Positions 2,041 to 62,255 of a stretch of 64,000 bases of DNA are shown here, in pieces. Positions within the stretch are counted from its first letter, which is position 1; every line of letters begins with the position of its first letter. The DNA is taken from the NCBI GenBank assembly GCA_964016885.1, contig OZ024759.1, positions 22,134,001-22,198,000 on the forward strand, given 5' to 3'. A program made the position numbers and the translations under genes. The notes beneath the pieces were generated by a model. The model saw only the letters and a program-made list of their open reading frames with translations. It was not told where the DNA came from and made no database searches. This stretch comes from Eledone cirrhosa. Lineage: Eukaryota.

Positions 2041-4365
2041 ACACACATCTAGGACCACATACAACACATAAGCAGGTAATACACACATCACATACACACA
2101 CACACACTGTACTTGTATTAACAAACAGCTCATACACACACATGTACACACATATACAGTACATGCACAACACATACATATGTACACAAACTCGCACACA
2201 CATGCACGCACACACACTACTTATTGTATCAATAAACAGGTCATACACACACATATACACATATATAAACACACACATAGACATACACATATATAGTACA
2301 TGCACAACACATACATATGTACACAAACTTACACACACACACACACACACTCAAGCACACACACACTCAAACACACACACATACACAAGCAGCTCATACC
2401 TGACCAACAACTTTTTCCCTGTTGCTATTTATAAATTAAGTGTGTGTGTATGTATGTATATGTGTTGTGTGTATGTGTGTGTATGTTTATATTTGTGTGT
2501 TTGTTTGTATATATGTGTGTATGTGTGTGTATGTGTGCATATGTGTGTATATATCTGTGTGTATGTGTGTGTGTGCATGTAAGTATGTGTGTGTATATGT
2601 ATGTGCCTGTATGTGTGTGTGCATGTATGCATATGTGTGTTTGTGTGTTTATATGTGTGTGTATGTGAGTATATGTGTGTATATGTGTATGTATGTGTAT
2701 ATGTGTGTGTCTGTCGGACACAAGGGGGGGGGGTATGTGTGTGTGGTCGGGGTAGCATGGAAGGGTGTGTGAGAGAAAGGACCTATCTGTTGGGACTACT
2801 AAAAACTATGTGGACTTTGATAAAAGTATTCATAGCCATGAAAATAATTGATGGCCTCTGGATAAAAACAAACAAAAACAACAACAACAATAACAGCAAC
2901 AAGTTTTAAATTGATTTTTTTTAATATTTTTTTTATTAACCCCTCCCTATGTTTTACACACCAAAATACCCCCTCCCCCATGCATCCCCACTCCACTGTA
3001 TAGTCCTGTGCTGTCACTATTGTTTACTTAATATTAGTCCTGTGTTGCTAATAAAGAAATTATTATTATTATTTGGATTGGAGTTATGGCCCTTTATGGT
3101 CTCAGTTCAAATCCCACCGATGTTAATTTTGCCTTTCATCCTTACGAGGTCGATAAAATAAAGTACCAATAATGTAGTGGGGTCGATTTAATCGACTTTC
3201 CCCTCCCCCAAAATTACTGGCCTTGTGCCTATACTAGAAATCATTTGACTATTTACAACAACTCATTTTGATGTTGCTTTGGGTCAGTTATTTTCGCCCG
3301 TGTGAATGAGTCTACTCTGAGCATGTGCCTGTAGGCTGGTTAATTTGAGGAGCGTAGTGCACTTCCCAGGTGCTCTCAAAGCGTTGGGTGGTTCGGGATT
3401 GGTGAATTACCTGAGTCACCCCTGGGTGCTTCTCCCTCACTTATTGGGGAATTCTGTTGTGACCAATAAAGAAAGAATTATTATTTTTATTATTATTTGA
3501 AACTTCCTTTGAATCCTACTTCTTTCCTAAATCATGCTGAGTGTCAATCTGACACCTGAGGCAAATATTATTATCATTAAAGGTGGAAAACGGGGAGAGG
3601 GCACTTGCCCTGGTGGTCAGGGTCACTGTGGCTTTTTAATGGGCTTTCTCTATGAATGTCCCTCGGAGGTCTCCCTCCTATTGGGGAATTTTTTCATTGT
3701 TCTATTATTACATCCTCTGTATCTTGTTTTTTTTACACGCAGAAATGCCATTTTGTACCGTCCTGTATTGTCCTGTACTGTCCTTAATGTCTACTTTGTG
3801 TAAACCCTTGTGGTTAATAAAGAAAGCATTATCATCATCATTATTATTATTATTATTATTATTATTAATCCCGCCGAGGTTGACTTTGCCTTTCATCCTT
3901 ACGGGGTCGATAAAATAAAGTACCAGTAATACACTGGGATAATTGCTGGCCTTGTGCCAAAAGTAGAAACAATTATTATTATTATTATAGTAGGGCAGTG
4001 GATTGGCAGTATTGGTAGAGCGTCAGACACTATGCGTTTCGGCATAGAGTTATGGCTCTTTACCTGCAGAGTTCAAATCCCGCCAAGTTTAGCTTTGCCT
4101 TTCATCATTACGGGGTCAATAAAATAAAGCACCAGTAATGCATTAGGGTCGATTTAATCAACTTCCCCCCTCCCTGGGGATGTGCCTATAGTAGAAATCA
4201 TCATTATCATTATAGTAGTGGTTCATTTAAGTAGGAGAGATTACAAAGAATCATTTCAGTAGAAGTTTTTACTGTTGTGATTTGTCATAACATTCCTTAT
4301 CTACAGATATGTCTAGGTGTTTCTATTGTAACATATATATTATGGTTTGTGTGTGTGTGTGTATA

Positions 4366-4417
<52 letters not shown>

Positions 4418-4498
4418 GGAAAAATTTGAACAGGGACAAAACAGAGAGGCAGTACAACGAATGTTTATTAATTTCACGCTCTGGAGAGTGGGGGTGTT

Positions 4499-4531
<33 letters not shown>

Positions 4532-4671
4532 TTTGTTCACACTCAAGTTTTGCTTGATACACATTCAAACCTTACCTCATTCAATGAGTAATTGTGAGCA
4601 AACGGGTTTATGGCGAATATTTTCTATAACCTCATCAATATATATATATATTTATATATATATGTATGTAC

Positions 4672-4865
4672 TACCTGCATCAGTTGTTAGCTGTCGAGAC
4701 ACTGCATCCTTTAAGGCCTCCATGCTTCCCGAGATCCGCCAACACTACAGCTAACACATACAAACATGTACTTCCCTGGCATTTGTGTATTATTCTATGT
4801 ACTATATTGACGAGTTGTAGTGCACCTGAGCACTTTACACAATAATTTCATTATTATTATTATTA
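4672..4865 (+). mobile_element. CR1/L2-group LINE 3' end with (ATT)n tail
   Basis: Near-identical to the reverse complement of 23830-23995, the tail of the CR1-like fragment. Confidence 0.75.
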
Positions 4866-5199
4866 TATGTGTGTGTATATATATATGAATGTAAAAGGTA
4901 AACAGAGATATGATGGTATAAACATGAAAGTACTAAATATATTCATATACGTATTATTTAAATTAATAAATTAATAAATTGGATGTTATATTAAAGTGAA
5001 GATAATACGATAGGTTATAATATAAGAGATGAAATATATTTAGGGAAAGAAATTGAAAGATAGAAAATGAAAGAGAGAAAATATAATAGGTTATGTTGAT
5101 TCATTGACAGTTAATAACAATAATAACAACAGTGATGATAATGGGTTATTATAATAGACTCATGTGGTATAATTTGAATTATGGAATTGTTGGGTCGAA

Positions 5200-5439
5200 T
5201 CAAGTTGGTTTGAAGTTATCGAATTTATTTGCTGCTTTATGTCTACAGAAAACTGACCGTTCAATTTTGCTGTTAAACAGTATTTTGTCATATTTTTAAA
5301 TATGGAATAATTTTATATTACAAAGTCTACAGTGGGACATACCAAGTTCGTAGGCCATTGCCCCTGACAATTTAGAGCAGTTAATCCTGTATTCTTGGTT
5401 TGTATCTTTGAGCTGCCAGATTTTATTGGCTAGCATTGT
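5200..5439 (-). pseudogene. Penelope-like element GIY-YIG endonuclease C-terminal remnant (CxxC...CRH type)
   Basis: Manual translation [21 protein letters not shown]...AYELGMSHCRLCNIKLFHI*KYDKILFNSKIERSVFCRHKAANKFDNFKPT*, matching the IWxLKD...CxLC...LN...CRH pattern of PLE endonucleases. Confidence 0.75.
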
Positions 5440-5441
5440 TG

Positions 5442-5475
<34 letters not shown>

Positions 5476-5564
5476 TATATATGTGTATATATATATGTAT
5501 GTATATATGTGTATATATATATGTTATCTATGTATATAAGTATATATATGTATGTGTATATATA

Positions 5565-5615
<51 letters not shown>

Positions 5616-5802
5616 GTTATATATGTATATATATATATGTATATATATATATGACATATATGTATATATATATGTGTATATATATATGTTATATATGTAT
5701 ATATATATATATATATGACATATATGTATATATATATGTGTATATATATATGTTATATATGTATATATATATATATGACATATATGTATATATATATGTG
5801 TG

Positions 5803-5834
<32 letters not shown>

Positions 5835-6423
5835 GAGTCGTATGATGATTTATTTGTCATAGTTGATATATTGGTTTTCCTGGAGTATAAGCTGATGTAC
5901 ATGACAATGTGTTTGGCTGTTTCAGTGACTCAGTCATGCTATCACATGCAGTAATGTTGTGGGTGTTTCAGATTACCTCCACACTGTTTAAAAAGGAGTC
6001 AGCATCATTTCCTCTTGTAATCTGTAATAGAGGGAGTGAACCTATCTTTTACCTGATCTTTACAGTTGACATTTCTTCTCACTGACTCACTTTAACTGAG
6101 TTGTCTCTTTTGTTCAACACAAATAAGGTTTACTTATTCATTCACACACACACAAGACCACACACATATGACCACACATACACATGACCACACATACATA
6201 TATCATCATCATCATCATCACCGTTTTATATCCGTTCTTCCTAACACCAACTGTAAATGAGGTTGGTGTTAGGTAGAAATCAAGCCAGAATCAGTTCCCG
6301 TATGAGCAAGACAGGGCCAGCCGACCGGACACTGCCCACAACAGGACAACCCATCTAACCCATGCTAGCGTGGAAGATGGACGTAAAATGTATATATATA
6401 CGTAATATATATGTAATATAGAG

Positions 6424-6455
<32 letters not shown>

Positions 6456-7156
6456 GACCACACATGATGGTCAAGAAATGTGATTAATGGTTATCACACA
6501 CACACACACACATGCATACACAGACACACACACACACACATATATATATATACGCACACATCACCACACATGATGGTCAACAAATGTGATTAATGGTTAT
6601 CACACATACACACACACATACACACATGACCACTCACACACACATACATATATATACACACACATGACTACACATGATGGTCAACAAATATGGGATAAAT
6701 GGTTATCACACACACACATACATACACACACATATATACATACATACATGCACTCGATGGTCAACAAATATATGATGAATGTTTATCATACACACACCCA
6801 GACTCATATATATATAATTCCAAATAAAAGATATATGTATAGAGTGTATATGTATATCATTTGAAAAGCATAGAATTTTGTGTATAAAGCACATAATATT
6901 TTTAAAAAATACATACTTTAAGGTCGAAAAGCCATTATTTTCCTTACGGTACCGTTTCATAGTTCATAAACTGAATAAAAAATCGATCTAAGTAATCAAT
7001 TTCTATTACCAACTATAGATTTCGGTAAAGCTATGGAAGATGGGAAACTAATCATCAGTGGAATTATCTTTTGATAAAACCTAATACAATACAAAACACC
7101 TTTACATCTGCTGGGATCTGAGAGGTAGTTAAAACTATAGACCTCATGGTGTGAGA

Positions 7157-9146: not shown

Positions 9147-10634
9147 TAATTAAAAGTTATTTGTAGACATCTTAATGAAAGGATAAAATACTGAGATAAA
9201 ATATCAACTCAGAGAAGTAATTAAACATATTAAACCTAAACCAAAATTCAACTACACAATACATATATATATAAAATATACTTTTTATCATATTATATTG
9301 AAAGCAACCTTGACTTGGAGTATTTCAGAATCCATTATAGAAAACTCTGCTGTACAACTCAGTTCAGTTTTCTAGCATTTCCATCAACTACGTTGGCTTT
9401 TGAATTACCTCCCTTGAACATGAGTTATTTCCCTTATTTATCGGTCATGAGCTGTGAATTGGCAGTCGTTAGAACGTCGGATAGAATAATTCAAGGTATT
9501 TGTTCCGCCTCTCTCTGAGTTCCAATCCCGCCAAGGTCAACTTTGCCTTTCGTCCTTTCGCGGTCGATAAAAAAAAGTACCAGTTTAATCTTGGGGTCGA
9601 TTCTTCATCTATATCTCTTTCTCACTTCCTTTTTGTCACTCTCCCTATTCTTCTCTGGAAGAAATCTGCTGTATTCACACCTAGAGAGGAGATGGGCTCT
9701 GCCAGATTTTAAAATACCTTAGAAACGTTGTATGCCAATATGATGTCCGTACGACTCCCCCATGTTATATGTCACAGAATGTAATGTGTGATGAGAGAAA
9801 TTTACTATTTCAATAACCAACCGGTTGCTAAAGTAACCGAAGAATTAATTAGTTAGCTGACTAATAAAGGTTTCTGATTTAGGCACAAGGCCAACAATTT
9901 TGGGGGGAAGGAAAAGTCGATTAAATCTACCTCAGTGCATTACTGGTACTTTATTTTATCAACCTCATAAGGATGAAAGGCAAAGCTAAACTCGTAGGGA
10001 TTTGAACTCAGAACATAAAAGACCATAACTCTATGCTGCTAAACATATTGTCTGACACTCTACCGATTCTGCCAATCCACTGCCCTAAGCTGGCTAATAA
10101 TTGTTTCTACAAGGCCAGCAATTATCCCAGTGCATTACTGGTACTTTATTTATTCAACCCCTTAAGGATGAAAGGCAAAGTTAACCTCAGTTAATAATAA
10201 GTTCTATTTGAGGCAAAACATCAGTATTTCGGGAAGAAGGAAGTCGATTTAATCAACACTGATACTTTATCAGTACTGGTGCTTGATTTTATCGACTCTG
10301 GAATGTTGAAAGACAAAGCTGGCCTTAGTGGGATTTGAACAAAAAGTGCCATAACTAAATGCTACAAAGAACTTCATCTGATGCTCTAACAATTCTGCCA
10401 ATCCTCCTTCGTTTACTAGAAACTGAACTGGTGCCTGTGTTCTTATTGTCAGCAGCATGTCACTCCTAAAGTCTAACAACATATATATATGTGTGTGTGT
10501 ATATATATATATATAAATAGTGAAGTATATTTCTAAATAGTGAAGTATATATATGTATATACAGATACATATATATATATATTGAAATGCGCATAATAAA
10601 ATACATGGAACTCTTTTAACCATCTTTTGATCTT

Positions 10635-10670
<36 letters not shown>

Positions 10671-11185: not shown

Positions 11186-12325
11186 GTCCCCATTTTATGT
11201 CCCAAATGCAAAGTATGGGTGCATAAAAGATGTAGTGGGATCACAGGTAAGCTAACTAAGAATATAGATTTTATATGTGGCCGGTGCTCAGGTGCACTAA
11301 GTAGCAGCAAGTGCCCATGGAATACTAGCTCATTCCATTGCACAGATGGTTCTATAGAAATAGTGGACACCTTCCGTTACCTGGGTGACAAAATCAGCAG
11401 TGGTGGAGGGTGCTCTGAAAGTAGCTAGTCAGAACGGGATGGAAAAAGTTCAGAGAGCTTGTACCACTATTGGCTACTAAAGGTTTCTCTCTAAAAATGA
11501 TAGGCAGGCTGTATGATGCCTGCATACGAACAGCAATGTTACATGGCAGTGAGACTTGGGCATTGTGTGCAGAGGATATATGCAAACTGGAGATGAATGA
11601 AGCTTGCATGCTCCGTTGGATGTGTAATAGTAATATACGTGAATGGCAAAGCATAAATGAACTAAGTGAGAAATTAGGAATAAGAGGGATCAGATGCTGT
11701 TTACTCAAGAGAAGACTACGTTGGTATGGTCACGTGATGCGCATGAAAGACGACAGCTGTATAAAAAAGTGCAGGGCAATAAAAATAGACGGTAGCGACA
11801 GAGTAGGCAGACCCAGAAAAACCTGGGACGACTTGATAAATTCCAACCTCACACACTTACACCTCTGCAAGACAATGTCACTGGACCGAGATCTTTGGCA
11901 CTACACAGTAATACAGAAGACCCGCCTTGCCTAAGTACAAAGTGAAACCTACAGTCAGTAGGCACCTCTTAACAAAAATACACCCCCGTCCCACTACCCC
12001 CACCCCATCCACACCAGCCCTTTCGATGTAAAGTTATGTTGGTACCACAACATCCAGTCCTAAATAAATGAGGTCGTGTAGGCGTCACAACAAAAAAACA
12101 CTCAGTCCACGTTGTAATGTGGCCGTGTAGGTAACACGGTAAAAACCTCCCAGTCCACACTGTAAACGTGGTTGGTGTTAGGAAGGGCATCCAACCATAG
12201 AAAACCCGCCAGACAGTCCTATACGAGCAAGACAACCAATCTTGCCTCAAGTGGAAAAATTCCCGTCCAAACCCATGCTAGCGTGGAAGATGGACGTTAA
12301 ACGATGATGATGATGATGATGATGA
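11186..12325 (+). mobile_element. 5'-truncated RTE-like LINE (RT C-terminus with Cys/His insert, 3'UTR, (GAT)n tail)
   Basis: [12 protein letters not shown]...FICGRC, FRYLG, YDACIRTAMLHGSETW, RLRWYGHVMR, GRPRKTW; frames broken. Confidence 0.88.
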
Positions 12326-12390
12326 TATATATATCATTTTTTCCAATTCCATCCCGCCCGTCCCCTTAATCTATTTTATTTTTCATTCTT

Positions 12391-12426
12391 TCGTCTGATG
12401 AAGGACTAGCGTCTGAAACGTAAGAC
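12391..12426 (+). ncRNA. Minimal PLE-type hammerhead motif (short stem II, ACGT stem III)
   Basis: CTGATGA-AGGAC tagc GTCT-GAAA-CG-TA; stem I poorly paired. Confidence 0.5.
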
Positions 12427-12896
12427 CCTCTTCCTGCTATATCAAGCGTTAACCTAATATATACCTTCCATATACTGTACCGATTGTGTTGTTATTTCTG
12501 TTTACCTTTTACATCTATATATATATATATATATATATATATGAATACAGGGAGAAAGAGACGATTATTAGGAAGAAAGATATATTTTTTTCCTTTTTTA
12601 TTTCTCTCTCGCTTTTTTCTGGGTTAGAAAATGATTAAAACAAAATGTTCTACTTTGTGTGAAGTGTTAAGGTATTAGTTGATTTATTTATTATTTAACA
12701 ATGGCATATATTTATCTATTTATATATTTAATAATTGTCTATTACCGGTTTCAACATTTTTATGTATTATCAAATGATGGTGAAATGTGTTAGTGTGGTG
12801 TCGCACATGTTAAAGAGAAGGTTCAGAAAGAATAATGTTATTTACAAACAAGGTTTATGAAGTGAAAAGAAAAAAGAAAAAAGTAAAAGAACGAGC

Positions 12897-12954
<58 letters not shown>

Positions 12955-13209
12955 GTATATATATATATATACATATATACACACACATACATATATATAT
13001 AAACATATATATAGATGTAGGAGGTGAGTTTTATTGTAGCACAATAAAGCAATGCAAATATCGGATAAGTAGCACTCTACAGTTTGTAGGACTGGAGCAT
13101 AAATAATATAAGATCAAAAGATGGTTAAAAGAGTTCCAGTATTTTATTATGCGCATTTCAAAAACAAATATCATCGTGGGATTATATCTACGTTCTCATC
13201 AGATATCCC

Positions 13210-13280
13210 TATTTTATCTGATGAGAACGCAGATATCATCCCATGATGATATTCGTTTTTGAAATGCGCATAATAAAATA
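13210..13280 (+). ncRNA. Type I hammerhead ribozyme motif; inverted partner on the - strand at about 13140-13206
   Basis: TATTTTAT-CTGATGA-[GAACG..ATATCATC ccat GATGATAT..CGTTT]-GAAA-TGCGCA-TA-ATAAAATA: 8-bp stem I, palindromic stem III ATGCGCAT. Confidence 0.78.
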
Positions 13281-13553
13281 CTTGGAACTCTTTTAACCAT
13301 CTTTTGATCTTATATTATATATATATAACACCAAGTCCACTCTGTAAGGGAGCTGACCTCGCTGGAATTTAAACTCAGAATGTAGAGGGCTGCAATTAAA
13401 TGTTAACATGCTCTAAAGGATTTTGTTTTGTCGAAGGTAAGCAAGCAATGTGGCAGCATGCTATTACGTCCGTCTCTGGGTCAAAAACATATCACATACT
13501 TTTTCCTCTTTGTTTTTCTTTGCTTGTTTCCTTAAAGCTTACAATATTAATTT

Positions 13554-13611
13554 ACACCTGATGAGGTCACCGGATTCTTACGCAATCTGGTCCATGAAAT
13601 GTGCATAGTGT
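13554..13611 (+). ncRNA. Type I hammerhead ribozyme motif
   Basis: ACAC-CTGATGA-[..ACCGGATT cttacgc AATCTGGT..]-GAAA-TGTGCA-TA-GTGT. Confidence 0.75.
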
Positions 13612-13901
13612 TTACAGTAATGAAAAATTAAGGAAATTCAACATATTTGGCCTCTTATCGTTTCATTTTATAATACATTTACTCCATTCTCGCACCACCA
13701 GCATGGTTCAACATTGAAGATGGATGAGTTAAATAACGTTGAGTGCTTTTCTCATATTACGTCATGATTAACATTGCAGAATGACCAATTCTACCCAGTG
13801 GTAAACCACCAAATCTAAACGTATATATATATATCCAGCGAATTTCGAACCATTAAGGTGTGATTTCCATGGGTATGTCATTATTTATAAAACAAATTTT
13901 G

Positions 13902-13966
13902 TATTTTATCTGATGAAAGCGCACCAAGATTTGCTTGGTCGCCCTTGAAATATATATAATAAAATA
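13902..13966 (+). ncRNA. Type I hammerhead ribozyme motif
   Basis: TATTTTAT-CTGATGA-[AAGCG c ACCAAG loop CTTGGT CGC cctt]-GAAA-TATATA-TA-ATAAAATA. Confidence 0.78.
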
Positions 13967-14007
13967 AATATGGTTTTATAAATATAGTTTCCATTTATTA
14001 TTATCTT

Positions 14008-14045
<38 letters not shown>

Positions 14046-14159
14046 AAAGTTTTATTTAAAATTGTTGGGTTACAACAAGTAAATATTTTATAACTGATAT
14101 AAAGCACTCGACAAGTTTTGGGAGTAGATATACGATATTAAACAAATGGAAACTATATT

Positions 14160-14225
14160 TATTTCATTATACATATTTCGGGGATACCATATTAAAAATA
14201 TGGCATGCCTTCGTCAGATAAAATA
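14160..14225 (-). ncRNA. Type I hammerhead ribozyme motif (intact core)
   Basis: Reverse complement reads TATTTTAT-CTGACGA-[AGG c ATGCCATATT ttt AATATGGTAT cccc]-GAAA-TATGTA-TA-ATGAAATA. Confidence 0.78.
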
Positions 14226-14319
14226 CAATATATAAACAGTTTTATAAATAATTTTGACGTACCATAAATATGAGCGATCATTATGTAGGAAGTTAGTTTG
14301 GTAAACCAACTTCCTACAT

Positions 14320-14488
14320 AATTGTTTCTACTTTAGGCACAAGGCCAGCAATTACCCAGTGCATTACTGGTACTTTATTTTATCGACCCCGTAAGGATGA
14401 AAGGCAAAGTCAACCTCGGCGGGATTTGAACTCAGATCGTAAAGGGACGTAACTATGCTGAAAGCATGGCGTCCGACCCTCTACCGAT
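14320..14488 (-). mobile_element. tRNA-derived SINE family A (Meta-domain-like core gccgaggttgactttgcctttcatccttacggggtcgataaaataaagtacc)
   Basis: B-box gagttcaaatccc and shared core; many other copies (about 3080-3245, 3870-4200, 9450-9600, 9860-10400, 20740-20862, 37038-37152, 50400-50620, 58820-59020, 60195-60540, 63683-63875). Confidence 0.8.
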
Positions 14489-14539
14489 CGCTCATATTTA
14501 TGTTACGTCAAAATTATTTATAAAACTGTTTATATATTG

Positions 14540-14605
14540 TATTTTATCTGACGAAGGCATGCCATATTTTTAATATGGTATCCCCAAAATATGTATAATG
14601 AAATA
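14540..14605 (+). ncRNA. Hammerhead motif, inverted copy of 14160-14225 with G12A change
   Basis: Same sequence as the - strand copy except GAAA is AAAA. Confidence 0.65.
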
Positions 14606-14646
14606 AATATGGTTTTATAAATATAGTTTCCATTTGTTTAATATCG

Positions 14647-14689
<43 letters not shown>

Positions 14690-14894
14690 TTTGTGTCCTT
14701 GAGTAAGACACTTTATTTTATGTTACTCCAGTTCTCTCAACACTGTAAATATATATATATATATATATATATAATAAAGTGTCTTACTCAAGGACACAAA
14801 ACATCGCCGTCGGACAAGCGAGCGGTCAGTCGGTCAATTGGGCGGGTCGGGGGAAATCCAGCTCTCTAACCACTGGGCCACGCACCTACCATAC

Positions 14895-14970
14895 CGAGTG
14901 ACGTGATAGATACTATAGATGTGAATTATAGCTACTGACATCAAGACGACACAGTGCGCCTGCGCAAAAC
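14895..14970 (+). promoter_or_regulatory. Candidate SCAMP promoter with NRF1-like site TGCGCCTGCGCA (14955-14966) and GTGACGTG
   Basis: Motif match in a locally CpG-rich patch about 720 bp upstream of the ATG, followed by a GA-rich putative 5'UTR; TSS not demonstrable from sequence. Confidence 0.45.
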
Positions 14971-15685
14971 TGACAACTAGAGAGAAAGAAAGAGTATAAG
15001 CTAGAGAGAGAGAGAGCAACAGACAGTAAACAAGCAAGAGAGAGAGTAAGTAAGCAAGTGAGAGAAAAAGACAGTAAGGAAGATAGAGAGAGAGAGTAAG
15101 CAAGAAAGAGAGGGAGACAGTAAGCAAGAGAGTAAGTCGCCATTACCTCCATTAACCTCCTATATTTGTTTTTACACACACAGGAGGACATTCCAACCCC
15201 TCTCTCTGTTATTTTATTTTTTTGTTGTTTTATTACAGGGGAGATTTAGGAGCTCCCCTACCCCTGTTTACACTAAAGGAATATATATATATAGTTATAG
15301 GGGAAATATATATATAGAGCTCCCCTACCCTAAAGAAATATACATACATATAAATATCTAGTCACATATATATGTGTATATACATAATCATAACATCGTA
15401 CAGCAAATGAGAAATATATATCAACTCTAAATAACAACAAACATAATTGAAATAAGAGGAAAAAAAGATTTACAAGTGACGAGACGGAGAAGAATTAGAC
15501 AAAAATACGACTACGGAGAAAAACTTATAACATACAACTCTGTTATTGTGTGTTAAATTATAATATTCCATATATTTCTACTGGTATCTAAAAGTAATAA
15601 TATCACTCAATTGTTTAATTGATCGATTAATTAAAAGAGTATTTCTTATTGAAGTGATTGATCTACCACACAATTTGAGAGAAAC

Positions 15686-15742
15686 ATGTCGGGATTTGAC
15701 AGCAATCCGTTTGCAGATCCGGAAGCTACAAATCCATTTGCG
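15686..15742 (+). CDS. SCAMP: SCAMP coding exon 1 (MSGFDSNPFADPEATNPFA)
   Basis: ATG at 15686, two NPF motifs, resembles the SCAMP1 N-terminus (MSDFDSNPFADP); GTGAGT donor at 15743, phase 0. Confidence 0.93.
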
Positions 15743-16273
15743 GTGAGTTTTATAGTTGTATTCACTTAATACTTTCATTTTGTACATACATATATATATT
15801 ATATATATATATAATTATTAAAGAGATACACAGACACCTCTATATATATATTCATATGTGTTCATAAATGATATAATGAAGTATATTTTATAGACACACT
15901 CATAATAAACATATATATATATACACACATATATTTGTTCAATTCGCTATATGTATTGTTTATAATGAATATGAATTGATGTATTTTAAAGTCATACTTA
16001 CACATATATCTATATATACACATATACCTATATATACACATATACCTATATATATATATAACACATATATATAACATATATAAAACACGTATATAAACAT
16101 ACATACATGATGTAATATGTAAGTATATTTTATATATTCATAACTATATACCTATACTATGAATAATGTATATAACGAATAGAATGATTTACTAAAATCA
16201 TACATCTACACTATATATATATATATTCATATAATATATTTTATACACCCACACATATATATATAATAAACAC

Positions 16274-23829: not shown

Positions 23830-24500
23830 ATGAAATTATTGTGTAAAGTGCTCAGGTGCACTACAACTCGTCAATATAGTACATAGAATAATACACAAAT
23901 GTCAGGGAAGTACATGTGTGTATGTGTTAGCTGTAGTGTTGGCGGATCTCAGGAAGCATGGAGGCCTTAAAGGATGCAGTGACTCGACAGCTAACATGGT
24001 TAACAATTTTGTGGGTGTTTACCTAGTCAGTTGCCAGGCGTCAGAGCTTCAATGAATCCATGCCCAGGGAAGCAAGGCGCTCAGAGTATGGTAGATGCCT
24101 GATGGAGGGTATTCGCTTGGTTGCACGTCTCTGAACAGTTTCCAGGCGGTCAATGTCCTGAGCAAGATAGGGGTTCCAGACTGGTGATGCAAATTCTAAG
24201 TGTGGTCGCACCATAGCTGTATACAGCCTTAAATAGATATCTGGAGAGCGGCTGACAAAGGTCTTGCTGAGTGATGCTAAGACACCCTCGGCCCTCTTGA
24301 CAATTTTAGAGACGTGCCTCGTCCAACGCAAATCGCTGCTGACCGTAATGCCCAGGTCACATTCACAGGAAGACTTCTTGATATTAGTGCTATGGAGGGA
24401 GTATGTGGACGCTGGGTTTTTACTCCCAAAATGCATGGTGGTGCACTTGTCCACAGCTAGCTTGAGTTGCCAGTCTGAGATCCATTGTTGTAGTTCACAG
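23830..24500 (-). mobile_element. CR1/L2-group LINE 3' fragment
   Basis: ORF 24041-24454: CDLGITVSSDLRW...LYTAMVRPHLEFASPVWNPY...LETVQRRATK; internal deletion, then 3' tail. Confidence 0.88.
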
Positions 24501-25676
24501 CAATGTAGGTTCAGCTGGCCTCATACGTGATTATATCTCATAGGTTTATTGAGAGCTTTAATGAGAGGGGCTTCAGTCCTGTTATACCCATATGTATGTT
24601 GTTGCAGTTTAACTGACCACCCACCTGTTTGTATCATAGGTTTATTGAGTTTTAATAAGAATGGGACCAGTCCTGTTATACACACATGTGCAGGTTTAGC
24701 TGGCTTCCTATCTGGTTATATCTCATAGAAGGTTTATTGGGAATTTTAATGAGAGGGGCCCCAGTTCTGTCATGAAAAAGCAGCATGAAATGAAGCATAT
24801 TGCTAAAAAAAATTAAAACCCAACATGGTCTGCTTGTTCCAGGAATTGATCAAACGACCTTAGGATCATGAGTCCAACTGCCTAACCACTAGGCCACTGG
24901 GTTTCACACTGGTAACACATGATATGATACCTAATTGTTTATTTGTTAATCATATGTACTAATTATGAAAAGAGAAAAAAATGTTTAAATTATTTGTTAT
25001 AAAGTGTGTCATTAATATTGCAAAGTTTTCTATATGCTGTTATACATAGTGCGTCTGGTAGAAACAACACCAAACACACCCTATCGATACCCCACCACCG
25101 CCTCTGTCTTATATGATATAAGGACATTATGCTTATAAAGTGGTTGTGGTTTCCCTCTGTGTGTAGGAAACACATGGGGTAATCTTAGAAAATGTATGTT
25201 ATGAGTAGGAAGTGAAATAATAGTGTAGTATATTATATATATATATATATATATTTGAAAAGAAGGGAAGAATGACTTCACTTGCTATTCTATATCAATT
25301 TAATTTTATAATTTTATAATTTTGGTATGTATATCTATTAGATCTACATAACAAAATTATAAAATTAAATTGATATAGACTACCAACTACAAGTGAAGTC
25401 ATTCTTTTCCTTTTTTCAAATGTACCTAACTGTACCAAAGATCTCAAACATTTCTCAATATATTTATATATATATATATATATAAAAAATCGGAGGCCAT
25501 ATTCAGTTGATTCAGGTTTATTCAAAACTCCATCATACATATTTTGCTGAGGACTATCAAACACGATGTTTATGAAGCGAATGCCGAGGCATTCGCTTCA
25601 TGAACATCGTGTTTGTCCATTCTCTTGTCACTTCAATTTTGGATTACCTCCTGATTGTAACCTTATTATGTTAGAA

Positions 25677-43596: not shown

Positions 43597-44972
43597 CCAA
43601 GAAAAGGGGGTGTAGAAGACAAAGACAAGATAAAACAATGGACAAATGAACTGTCCTTACGATTTAGGACTCCCACTGGCACCCACCCTCCCCTCATACT
43701 TTGGTATCTTTCTCTTCCTCTTTCTCTCTCGCTCTCGCTCTCTCTCTCTCTCCCTCTCTCTCTTTATATATAGGGCATACCTCTCTAGTTCTCTGGGACA
43801 TAACTCTCTTTCTCTTCCTTGCCACTGCTTTTTGCTCTCTCTCTCTCCCTCTCTCCTACCCCTCACCCTCAGACAATTCTTGTTCTCTCTCTCCTCCCCT
43901 TTTCCCTGTCTCCCTTTCCCACTTTTTCCTATGAAAGTTATTTTGAGCTGGTCTTTGCCCTTATGACACCCAGGGATATGGTGCACAATAGATATTTACT
44001 CTAATAGTTTTCATTAAAGTTTTGAATATTTCATAATGGAAGACATCACATGAGAAAACATGAATATATATGAATATATAAGCAAACGAAAGGTGCCTCT
44101 ATGTGGTTGTTTGATTTGCTAAAAGATACAGCCAAATTCCCTTCAAGTTACACATCCTACCACCTTAAAAAAGGAAAGGATGTATTGGTCAATTTACTTC
44201 GAGATATGTGGCTCAGAAAAAAGTACCAGCAGCAGTGGATGGCATCTTGTCATGTAACCTACACAACCACTTTACAGTGTGGACTGGGCACTTTTTGTTG
44301 TCAACTACATGACCACTTTACAGTGTAGACTGGGGACTTTTTGCTGTGTCACCTACAAGACCACTTCCCAGTGTAGACTGGGCACTTTTTGTCATGTCAG
44401 TTATACGACCACTCAGCAGTGCCGGCTGGTCACCTTTTGTCGTGTCACCTACACGACCACTCAGCAGTGCCGGCTGGACACTTTTTGTTGTGTCACCAAA
44501 TGTCATATGGCGCTAAATAACAACAGAGCCCATACAACTTCAATCTAATTAAATAGACATTTTAAGATGAGACTATATATACTTCATTTTCCAAACTTAG
44601 AGTACTTTTTATATATTGGTCAACTAAAATCTCCCTCTTCTTCTTCTTCTTCTCTCTCTCTCTGTTTTACCCCTCCCCCACCTATTCTACCCTACCCTGA
44701 ACCCACGTTTCACTTTCTCCCTCTCTTTCCTTTACTCTCTCTCTCTCTCACCGACTCTATTCTCCATTTTCCGACAAATTCCATCATCACCACCACCACC
44801 ACCATCACCAGGTAATATCTCTACCACCGCCACCACCACCTAGCTAATATCTCTACCACCACCACCTCTAGCTAATATCTCTAGCACCTAGCTAATATCT
44901 CTAATACCCTTCACCGATGCCAGGATCTCATGGTGATTCCATTACTTGATGCGACTGTTTATCTGTTTCCAG

Positions 44973-60195: not shown

Positions 60196-61248
60196 CAGGG
60201 GTCGATAAAATAAAGCACTAGTAATGCACTGGGGTCAATTTAATTTACTTTCCCTTCCCCCCAAAATGTTGGTCTTGTGCTTAAATCAGAAACCATTATT
60301 ATTATTATTATTATATTATAAAGGATGTGGATTGGCAGAATCGGTAGAGTGTCGGACAACATGCTTAGCGGCGTATAATTACGACCCTTTACAGTCTGAG
60401 TTCAAATCCCGCTGAGGTTAGCTTTGCCTTTCATCCTTACGGGGTCGATAAATAAAGTACCAGTAATGCACTGGGGTCGATTTAATCGATTTTCCCCTAC
60501 CCTTCAGATTGCTGACCTTGTGCCTAAAGTAGAAACCTTTATTATTATATTGTTTATTATTTTTGTTATTATACTGTTGTTGTTAATGTTATTGCTCTCA
60601 TCTTCCTCATTATCATAATTATCACCACTGTGTACTGAATGCTGTGTAGAATTAATGATGAGTTTCCTCTATTAACTACCTCGTTATTTTTCTAACGAAC
60701 CATCGTTGATAATTTGCTTGTGTGTTGTGTGTTTGTTTGTTTCAATGGTTTGTGAAAGTCACTTGTACTTCTCTACTGCAACCTAAACACTATGTACTTC
60801 TCTACTGCAACCTAAACACTATGTACAAAATATATACATCAAATGAAATCTCTTGCTGAATTCAGTCACCACACATATCTAGACACACACACACAGGCAC
60901 GTCTCTAAACACATATACACACACACTACTATATATATATATATTTAATATAGAAATGGCTTCTGATGATTTCTTCCAAATAAAACAGTTCTAGTCCTAT
61001 AGAAACCATTTCTATGTTAAATATTTATACTCTGCTATGTATTGAGTACCTTACTTACTGTGGTTACCCCCAATTGAACCCGGGATAAACTCTCTATATA
61101 TATATTTATTTAGGTTTGTTGGTTCACCACTGGATAGAACTTGAGAGTGGCTGACCGGGGTAGAAGCTGCTAAATGTTCAGTCGCCCTCATGTCTCTGAT
61201 TTTCAGCCCCATGGATTTTGTCTATTATATTCCTTTGTTATATTTCGA

Positions 61249-61306
61249 ATACTTGATGATGTCACTGGATTCATACTGAACCTGGTCACTGAAATGATCA
61301 GAGTAT
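61249..61306 (+). ncRNA. Degenerate hammerhead motif related to 13554-13611
   Basis: ATAC-TTGATGA-[tgtcactggattc..gaacctggtcact]-GAAA-TGATCA-GA-GTAT; C3U and U16.1G changes. Confidence 0.55.
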
Positions 61307-61376
61307 AATAAACCTTTTAAGGAATTACACCAGTCCAGCCTCCTGTTATTTTATAATATATATATATATATATATA

Positions 61377-62255
61377 CAGGGTGCAGATGATATCTGTTCG
61401 CAAGATTACTGTCTAGGAAAAAATAAGACAGTAGCTTTATTTTTTAAGATTTATTTATCAAACTTGGGTCAGTTTGTCTTCATGACTTGTTTTTTCGATC
61501 TCACTCGATAAACCCGCCATTGGCTTTGATGACGGCCTCGGAATTGGCTACAGGCCTTCGTCACTGTCCCCTGACTTAGGCCCCTAAAGGCACTTGTGAT
61601 CCTGGCCTTCAGATCATCTTTCGTATTGCAGCTAGATCTGTTGGTGTCTCGTTCCACTGCGCCCCACACAAAGAAGTCGAGGGGGTTGCAGTCAGGCGAG
61701 CTAGGAGGCCAGATGTCGGGTGAAGTGTGGTCGACGAAGTTCTCTGACAGCCAGGCTTGGGTCTTTCGGCTGGTTTGGCAGGGCGCTGAGTCTTGCTGCC
61801 ACATGTACGGCCTACCTGCAGCTACCTGGTCGATCCAGGGCTTTACTACCTTGCTCAGAACGCAGATGTAGCCATCGGTGTTCAGCTTGAGGCCCTCAGG
61901 GAAGAAGTGAGGTGGCATGACATCACCTTGACTGCCAACGACACCTAAAACCAATGTTGTCTCTGGAAACTTTGTCTGCATGACTCTGGGCACGTCTTTG
62001 GATGAGACAGCGAGCCACCTGTTGTTCTGGGAGTTGATCTTCTGGTCTTATTTGTCCTCCCGGTGCGGATTCCAAAAAGAACTCCATGTCTCTTCCACAA
62101 ATTTGGAAGTTCAGAATTATTCATAATCAATTATTCTGAAAATAAATAATGGAAATATAGTCAGTTTTTATGAAGACAAGAGTGACAATGGAAGTAAAAA
62201 AAATTTGCATAAAATTAGCAGTTGAAAATTGCGAACAAATATCGTCCGCACCCTG
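61377..62255 (-). mobile_element. Tc1/mariner superfamily DD37D (maT-type) element, internally deleted
   Basis: TIRs CAGGGTGC.GA.GATAT.TGTTCGCAA, TA at the left end; ORF 61469-61993 has QQDSAP...WPPSSPDCNPLDF with 37 residues between the last two Asp. Confidence 0.9.

What the first reader, a model, noticed from the sequence alone, without database searches (positions are those of the whole stretch)
13103..14648. Six hammerhead motifs packed into 1.5 kb just upstream of the SCAMP promoter
Seen: HHRs at about 13140(-), 13210(+), 13554(+), 13902(+), 14160(-) and 14540(+), from at least three distinguishable sequence families, ending about 300 bp before the NRF1-like site. Inferred: either an insertion hotspot in accessible (TA)n-rich chromatin, or a retained array that could cut read-through or divergent promoter transcripts on both strands.
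Basis: partly seen in the sequence, partly recalled or inferred. Interest (0 to 1): 0.75.

Follow-up and report, generated by a model that had tools for sequence, protein, structure and literature searches.

The report
Pile-up of Penelope retrotransposon ends
The six self-cutting-RNA motifs are real, but they are the leftover ends of four separate insertions of Penelope-like jumping genes that land in TA repeats all over this genome, and four of the six are predicted to be locked in fold-back hairpins, so this is likely an ordinary transposon pile-up rather than a device that controls the neighbouring gene.

Summary
Observation confirmed: six type I hammerhead motifs in 1.35 kb (0 in 1000 shuffles), ending 304 bp before an NRF1-like motif upstream of a SCAMP gene. 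They are four insertions, not six. Each is a 5'-truncated 3' end (pLTR) of a Penelope-like element. Two insertions carry the usual inverted second arm with a one-sided tail. Family A maps to both ends of full-length elements whose ORF has the Hydra-clade motifs, and family B adjoins a related ORF. The shared stem I + core 15-mer occurs 51,825 times genome-wide. These elements sit at (TA)n and cluster several-fold above chance, so roughly tens to hundreds of such pile-ups are extrapolated. A retained cutting array is not supported: three of four insertions are 97-100% identical to dispersed copies, one motif has lost G12, one has a 3-bp stem I, and both inverted pairs fold into hairpins that bury the cores. 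A weak proxy test showed no promoter enrichment, but this is the densest cluster I saw and a mild open-chromatin bias is not excluded. The scan has reported the same elements in other windows of this genome. Ordinary; low interest.

The parts
12898..13013 (.). (TA)n/(CA)n microsatellite flanking insertion B on the left
13017..13205 (-). Family B inverted arm: about 86-nt tail (13017-13102) plus pLTR end with hammerhead at 13202; truncated inside stem I (3 bp left); predicted cut after 13148
13205..13320 (+). Family B sense arm, no tail, hammerhead at 13218 (stem I 8 bp, predicted cut after 13272), ends in (TA)n to 13327; 100% identical over 114 nt to a copy that adjoins a PLE ORF (L032)
13437..13822 (+). 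Family C pLTR end with about 160-nt tail, hammerhead at 13558 (stem I 4 bp, decayed stem II); oldest copy (best other copies 78-91%); left edge approximate; ends in (TA)n 13823-13834
13835..14009 (+). Family D pLTR end, no tail, hammerhead at 13910 (intact core, stem I 8 bp, predicted cut after 13958); 97-98% identical to dispersed copies; followed by (TA)16 at 14010-14042
14044..14302 (-). Family A inverted arm with about 85-nt tail; hammerhead at 14217 with intact core (predicted cut after 14168)
14303..14650 (+). Family A sense arm, no tail, hammerhead at 14548 with G12 changed to A; ends in (TA)n 14647-14673; 96-97% identical to the pLTR of full-length element L101
14322..14487 (-). Fragment of a very abundant short repeat (SINE-like, inferred) nested later inside the sense arm of A
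14954..14966 (+). NRF1-like 13-mer (label recalled) upstream of SCAMP; 44 exact copies in the genome against 7 for the control, part of them carried by another hammerhead-bearing repeat
15686..15742 (+). First coding exon of SCAMP (two NPF motifs). A 1881-nt contig of run X4 covers 15121-15743, stops at the splice donor and runs on elsewhere, as a spliced RNA would

Best explanation
The six motifs are the hammerhead-bearing 3' ends of four separate, 5'-truncated insertions of Penelope-like elements (A shown, and B very likely, to be Hydra-type; C and D inferred), which likely accumulated one after another in TA microsatellites and likely have no role for SCAMP. Mechanism, inferred from the anatomy and from published work on a related clade: the element's endonuclease nicks (TA)n, and its reverse transcriptase starts at one of two fixed internal sites of the RNA. 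Copies therefore end either at the pLTR end or 85-90 nt (C: about 160 nt) further, which gives the tail. Copying aborts after 110-400 nt, so only the hammerhead region is left. When both DNA ends are extended, a head-to-head pair results with the tail on exactly one arm. Each insertion leaves (TA)n on its flanks, which is a new target, so chains form: C-(TA)n-D-(TA)n-A here, with B in a separate run about 110 bp further left. The likely order is C first, then D, B and A, then a SINE-like fragment into A. In any read-through RNA the antisense arm is made before the sense arm on both strands, so the paired ribozymes are predicted to zip into hairpins.
For: Copy number: 51,825 exact copies of the stem I + CUGAYGA 15-mer shared by A, B and D (control 259). 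Near-identical dispersed copies: A 99-100%, B up to 100%, D 97-98%, C 78-91% (40 candidates scored each). Link to an ORF: family A matches pLTRs on both sides of a 747-750-aa frame in 5 of 8 long-frame loci fetched (L102-L104, L107, L108). In L101 the 3' pLTR and the tail before the ORF match; L105 has the 3' pLTR only; L106 has no match. [quoted passage not shown] The B tail leads into an ORF 54.5% identical over 418 aa (L032). Tails: 19 of 19 inverted A pairs, among 29 loci (10 solo), have the tail on exactly one arm. Background: 25 motifs (22 insertions) in 60 blind 10-kb stretches; 35 of 38 motifs in the grid plus the neighbouring 200 kb lie within 300 nt of (TA)5 (random 37%); 0 of 20 TA-poor against 17 of 40 TA-rich stretches hold one, p=0.0005. 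Clustering: 19 further insertions around 61 focal copies (0.31 per 3.1 kb, 0.11 expected), and 5 of 83 gaps under 1.5 kb against 0.73 expected in the first 14.3 Mb of C1. One blind stretch has 4 motifs in 504 nt (L225). Folding: core bases are 89-100% paired and stem I probability is 0.000 for all four paired motifs; C 0.001; D 0.11-0.32.
Against: This is still the densest spot seen: 6 motifs in 1.55 kb against a maximum of 4 in every other locus scanned. None of the 61 focal loci had three further insertions (15 had one, 2 had two). Local (TA)n density is not above the window average, so TA density alone does not predict the cluster and the explanation needs self-reinforcing clustering. By my extrapolation (30-110 such clusters per genome; about 25,000 promoters assumed) only about 0.5-2 would sit within 2 kb of a promoter by chance, so the position is a tail event. 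No ORF was tied to C or D. Folding is an equilibrium prediction. No phylogeny was built, and element A (about 4.2 kb) is longer than the '<3 kb' typical of Hydra.
Confidence: 0.87

Rival explanations
1. The same elements, but the pile-up lies here because the endonuclease reaches (TA)n more easily in open chromatin next to a housekeeping promoter (a real hotspot, still without function).
For: Densest cluster among all loci scanned; local TA density is ordinary; only about 0.5-2 promoter-adjacent clusters are expected by chance. Further repeats (SINE-like) also inserted here.
Against: Within 2 kb of 29 NRF1-like sites not carried by a repeat there are 4 motifs (3 insertions) in 116 kb, 0.34 per 10 kb against 0.42 in the blind grid. 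The sites are unverified promoters, so the test is weak. Comparable chains occur at blind or order-picked places (L225, L274, L003), whose distance to promoters I did not determine.
Confidence: 0.09
2. A retained ribozyme array cuts read-through or divergent transcripts on both strands and insulates the SCAMP promoter; the best candidate would be D(+), alone or as a mixed dimer with A(+).
For: D(+) has an intact core and the only appreciable stem I probability (0.11-0.32). D and A are cross-compatible for a double hammerhead (stem III 8 of 8 pairs, stem I 8 bp). Motifs lie on both strands.
Against: A, B and D are 97-100% identical to dispersed copies, so they are recent and show no sign of long retention. 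A(+) lacks G12, B(-) lacks most of stem I, and C has a decayed stem II. Both minus-strand motifs and two plus-strand motifs are buried in hairpins. A monomer stem III has only 2 bp. Single metazoan PLE hammerheads showed no cleavage and dimers little (PMC4209133). The Poseidon hammerhead cut only with the element's protein, and no RNA-seq ends were found at its cut site (PMC11167929).
Confidence: 0.03
3. The region is a retrozyme (tandem hammerhead monomers that give circular RNA).
For: Type I hammerheads with palindromic stem III are the retrozyme type, and retrozymes are proposed to be PLE derivatives (bioRxiv 10.64898/2026.07.22.740005).
Against: No head-to-tail monomers: only microsatellites are found by TRF here. 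The motifs belong to four families, and A and B trace to ORF-bearing elements.
Confidence: 0.01

Closest known systems
Hydra clade of C-terminal EN+ Penelope-like elements, including Hydra-1_Obim (Craig et al. 2021, PMC8557442; sections 6 and 11, passages and supplement rows read)
   Same: Single ORF with RW(K/R), DKT, GLYRDD, CxCX5C linker, GIY-YIG without CCHH, CxxC and CxH; hammerhead in the pLTR; (TA)n targets; 5' truncation, inverted 5' copy, one-sided tail.
   Different: Family A is about 4.2 kb with a 1.6-kb 3' region (Hydra 'generally <3 kb'); tails are 85-160 nt (30-40 bp described); the hammerheads differ from the one listed for Hydra-1_Obim, so these are other families; copy numbers are in the tens of thousands.
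Minimal/palindromic type I hammerheads of metazoan PLEs (Cervera and de la Pena 2014, PMC4209133; parts 1-2 of 4 read)
   Same: Long stem II, palindromic stem III that needs a dimer, mostly solo motifs from truncated elements; pairs 100-700 bp apart on opposite strands are described there explicitly.
   Different: G10.1-C11.1, highly conserved there, is absent in all six motifs here (A-U in 20 of 31 motifs of the blind sample); four families in 1.5 kb next to a promoter is not discussed in the parts read.
Poseidon element of Anolis, PAc (Frangieh et al. 2024, PMC11167929; main text read)
   Same: Two internal start sites of reverse transcription explain the tail; AT-rich target; both strands cut and extended.
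   Different: Other clade; there the hammerhead overlaps the ORF start and the two sites are closer together. The mechanism is carried over here by inference.
Metazoan non-LTR retrozymes (bioRxiv 10.64898/2026.07.22.740005, part 1 of 5 read; PMC7229834, search listing only)
   Same: Type I hammerhead in PLE-related non-coding repeats.
   Different: No tandem monomers here; the pieces are truncated ends of different families.

Membership tests
Type I hammerhead ribozyme | C3-U4-G5-A6-N7-G8-A9 core | tested here: met
   6 of 6
Type I hammerhead ribozyme | G12-A13-A14 | tested here: met
   5 of 6; 14548(+) has A12, so that copy fails
Type I hammerhead ribozyme | A15.1-U16.1 pair and NUH cleavage triplet | tested here: met
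   6 of 6, triplet AUA
Type I hammerhead ribozyme | Stems I and II can form | tested here: inconclusive
   Stem I 8 bp in 4, 4 bp in C, 3 bp in B(-). Stem II forms in the isolated motifs except B(-). In context, four motifs are buried in hairpins
Type I hammerhead ribozyme | G10.1-C11.1 closing pair | tested here: not met
   0 of 6 (G-U x3, A-U, A/C x2); a family trait, A-U in 20 of 31 blind-sample motifs
Type I hammerhead ribozyme | Match to an Rfam hammerhead model | tested here: not met
   None at gathering score in the window, none at E<=10 in 12000-16000
Type I hammerhead ribozyme | Self-cleavage | not testable with these tools
   Needs an in vitro assay or end sequencing
PLE-type dimeric hammerhead | Palindromic stem III | tested here: met
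   6 of 6; with no stem III filter, 26 of 31 motifs in 800 kb are fully self-complementary and 5 have one mismatch
Penelope-like element | pLTR with hammerhead on both sides of an RT + GIY-YIG ORF | tested here: met
   Family A: 5 of 8 long-frame loci with matches on both sides. B: tail runs into a homologous ORF in one locus. Not shown for C and D. Pfam gave no significant hit; domains were read from motifs
Penelope-like element | 5' truncation, inverted second copy, tail on one end only | tested here: met
   19 of 19 A pairs; seen by eye in B, C and D loci
Hydra clade | RWK, DKT, CxCX5C linker, no CCHH, CxxC and CxH near the end | tested here: met
   RWR, DKT, CNCRDRSKC, CDLC, CRH in the A frames
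Hydra clade | (TA)n insertion preference | tested here: met
   35 of 38 motifs within 300 nt of (TA)5
Hydra clade | Generally short (<3 kb) | tested here: not met
   L101 spans about 2968-7135; stated as a tendency in the paper
Hydra clade | Placement in the RT phylogeny | not tested
   Reference proteins were not available as stored sequences
Non-LTR retrozyme | Two or more head-to-tail monomers, each with a hammerhead | tested here: not met
   No such array in 13000-14700

The most novel reading that the evidence does not exclude
Hammerheads from two different retroelement families (D core, A cleavage strand), which share stem I and have cross-compatible palindromes, form a mixed double hammerhead in cis and cut read-through RNA 370 nt before the SCAMP promoter motif: a ribozyme insulator assembled by chance from transposon debris and kept by the host.
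Probability: 0.03. Interest if true: 0.75.

Novelty: new member of a known kind. Interest (0 to 1): 0.13.

Why it matters
As it stands it matters little: one more example of Hydra-type Penelope ends in a genome that holds on the order of 100,000 such motifs. Two points are of some use. First, head-to-head PLE insertions are predicted to silence their own ribozymes by hairpin formation, so counting hammerhead motifs overstates the number of possible cutting sites. Second, TA-targeted elements cluster several-fold above Poisson, which is the right null for any claimed 'ribozyme array' in such genomes. If the promoter bias or cleavage were real, it would be a case of ribozyme exaptation at a housekeeping promoter.

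Tried and rejected
Rfam: no hammerhead match. Pfam: nothing significant for the 750-aa frame. Expression: no RNA holder was listed for the SCAMP 5' region. One run (X4) behaves like RNA and gave no locus-specific contig across 13388-13571 or 14676-14951, but contigs cannot show absence, ends or strand, so this is no evidence either way. Depth over the repeats is summed from other copies. Transcription upstream of 13020 was not examined, so a neighbouring gene as a source of read-through stays open. Promoter proxies: the perfect NRF1 palindrome pattern (730 matches) was dominated by tandemly spaced repeats and dropped. Of 40 regions around the 13-mer, 11 were dropped because the motif lies inside another repeat family, leaving 29. 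A pattern for the D-end/(TA)n/A-tail junction with a spacer of up to 18 nt found 0 places; the spacer in the window is about 33 nt, so this says little. tblastn of the A frame found no ORF clearly joined to C (19 other loci) or D (14 other loci). In the clustering count 9 of 70 loci were dropped (3 were the window itself, 6 duplicates or overlaps). No orthologous region could be compared: no relatives are held. Literature searches listed no paper on hammerhead clusters at cephalopod promoters; bioRxiv supplements were not seen.

Full report
Observation. 1000 dinucleotide shuffles of the region gave none. All six have CUGANGA, a long stem II, an 8-nt palindrome for stem III and an AUA cut triplet. 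14548(+) has A at G12, 13202(-) has only 3 bp of stem I, and none has G10.1-C11.1. Rfam does not detect them. The downstream gene is SCAMP (name from recalled motifs): first coding exon 15686-15742, later exons near 44970, 54900, 56100, 57900 and 59480. A 1881-nt contig of run X4 covers 15121-15743, stops at the donor site and runs on, as a spliced RNA would; exon 2 starts with G, which explains the extra base. The NRF1-like 13-mer is at 14954-14966.

What the motifs are. Two pairs are inverted repeats: 13138-13205 with 13215-13282 (94%) and 14150-14279 with 14486-14615 (98%). Searches of the own genome show each piece to be part of a dispersed family: A 99-100%, B up to 100%, D 97-98%, C 78-91%; only 40 candidates were scored per search. 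The 15-mer shared by A, B and D occurs 51,825 times (control 259). The copies are 5'-truncated, end at (TA)n, often have an inverted second arm, and carry an 85-90-nt extension (C about 160) on one end. In 29 A loci, 19 are pairs and all 19 have the tail on exactly one arm. This is the anatomy given for Penelope-like elements in PMC8557442 (section 6). Opposite-strand hammerhead pairs 100-700 bp apart from truncated PLEs are described in PMC4209133. So there are four insertions: B (13017-13320, paired), C (about 13437-13822), D (13835-14009) and A (14044-14650, paired), with a SINE-like fragment nested in the sense arm of A at 14322-14487. C, D and A are separated only by (TA)n runs.

The parent element. 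One A locus carried an inverted RT fragment. It drew 53,888 first-look candidates, and the 150 scored were 89-100% identical. Eight loci with long frames were fetched. Five have A-type pLTRs on both sides of a 747-750-aa frame, L101 has the 3' pLTR and the tail before the ORF, L105 has the 3' pLTR only, and L106 has none. The tail is the stretch between the 5' pLTR and the start codon. The frame has RWR, DKT, GLYRDD, CxCX5C, a C-terminal GIY-YIG without CCHH, and CxxC and CxH: the features listed for the Hydra clade (PMC8557442 section 11). Its supplement lists a (TA)n-targeting Hydra-1_Obim with a hammerhead. Pfam gave no significant hit and I built no tree. At about 4.2 kb, A is longer than typical Hydra elements. 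The B tail leads into an ORF 54.5% identical to that of A over 418 aa (L032). No ORF was tied to C or D.

Is the cluster special? In 60 blind 10-kb stretches (20 on the first 21.5 Mb of the same contig, 40 elsewhere) there are 25 motifs from 22 insertions, about 110,000 insertions per genome by extrapolation; the neighbouring 200 kb hold 13 motifs. Motifs follow (TA)n: 35 of 38 lie within 300 nt of (TA)5 against 37% of random places, and 0 of 20 TA-poor against 17 of 40 TA-rich stretches contain one (p=0.0005). The insertions also carry or expand TA flanks, so this link runs both ways. They cluster beyond Poisson: 19 further insertions around 61 focal copies (0.31 against 0.11 expected), and in the first 100 listed places of the 15-mer (14.3 Mb of C1) 5 of 83 gaps are under 1.5 kb (0.73 expected) and 13 under 5 kb (2.4 expected). 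That list holds one stretch with four 15-mers in 1.4 kb, the same count as here (point estimate 210 per genome, range 5-1170). A blind stretch has four motifs in 504 nt (L225). A Poisson extrapolation gives about 30-110 four-insertion clusters per genome. Against my reading: no other locus reached six motifs in 1.55 kb or three further insertions, local TA density here is ordinary, and only about 0.5-2 such clusters would lie within 2 kb of a promoter by chance (25,000 promoters assumed). The one promoter test I could run found 4 motifs in 116 kb around 29 NRF1-like sites, equal to background, but those sites are unverified, so a mild accessibility bias is not excluded.

Could it cut RNA? On either strand the antisense arm of a head-to-head pair is transcribed before the sense arm. 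Partition-function folding puts the core bases of B(+), B(-), A(+) and A(-) 89-100% in pairs, with stem I probability 0.000; C has 0.001 and D 0.11-0.32. A monomer stem III has two pairs, so a dimer is needed, and in a dimer both stem III and stem I form between units (established hammerhead geometry; inference here). C is compatible with no neighbour on its strand. D is compatible with A (8 of 8 and 8 bp), but A(+) is buried and lacks G12. Published tests point the same way: a single minimal PLE hammerhead did not cut and dimers cut weakly (PMC4209133); the Anolis Poseidon hammerhead cut only with the element's protein, and no RNA-seq ends were found at its site (PMC11167929). Three of the four insertions are nearly identical to dispersed copies, which leaves no sign of long retention.

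Mechanism. Shown: identity, boundaries, family links for A and B, tail asymmetry, TA association and clustering. Predicted: hairpin burial. Inferred from PMC11167929 and PMC8557442: nicking at (TA)n, reverse transcription from two internal sites on both DNA ends, early abortion, and reuse of the TA flanks by later elements. The order (C, then D, B and A, then the SINE-like piece) is inferred from divergence and nesting.

Verdict. A real, dense but ordinary pile-up of Penelope-like ends of a known kind. The scan has reported the same system in other windows of this genome (AI notes, used as leads only). Interest 0.13.

Noticed in passing
L179, L186, L190, L191, L198, L200, L203, L205, L208, L209, L213: Another repeat family carries the exact NRF1-like 13-mer, about 140 nt before its hammerhead in the copies that keep one; 11 of 40 regions fetched. 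Possibly an internal promoter of that element.
   Followed up: partly
window 13017-13102, 13660-13822, 14044-14130; L273: The tails of A, B, C and D all begin with a short ACTC...GAGT stem a few bases after the first end site (B has GCTC in the window); seen by eye, matches earlier scan notes.
   Followed up: partly
blind sample, 800 kb: The pair closing stem II next to the core is A-U in 20 of 31 motifs and G-C in only 4, unlike the conserved G10.1-C11.1 of most hammerheads.
   Followed up: partly
window 13103-13205 against 13212-13320: The inverted arm of B differs from the sense arm at about 5 places in 100 nt, while the sense arm is identical to a copy elsewhere: asymmetric decay or two different templates.
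   Followed up: no
window 14686-14805 and on to about 14895: An inverted repeat of about 35 bp around a (TA)n run, continuing into what looks like an old tRNA-type SINE head on the minus strand (inferred), fills the gap between the cluster and the promoter.
   Followed up: no
window 10582-10646, 61095-61364, 25682, 43210: Further hammerhead-family remnants in the window: a B end, a C fragment, and two motifs of other families inside the SCAMP introns.
   Followed up: partly
L101-L104, L107: Several copies of family A keep an uninterrupted 749-750-aa frame, which suggests very recent activity of this retrotransposon.
   Followed up: partly
window 11376-11934, 24041-24520, 61469-62047: Fragments that look like a non-LTR RT end, a CR1/L2-like RT end and a mariner-type transposase (labels recalled).
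   Followed up: no
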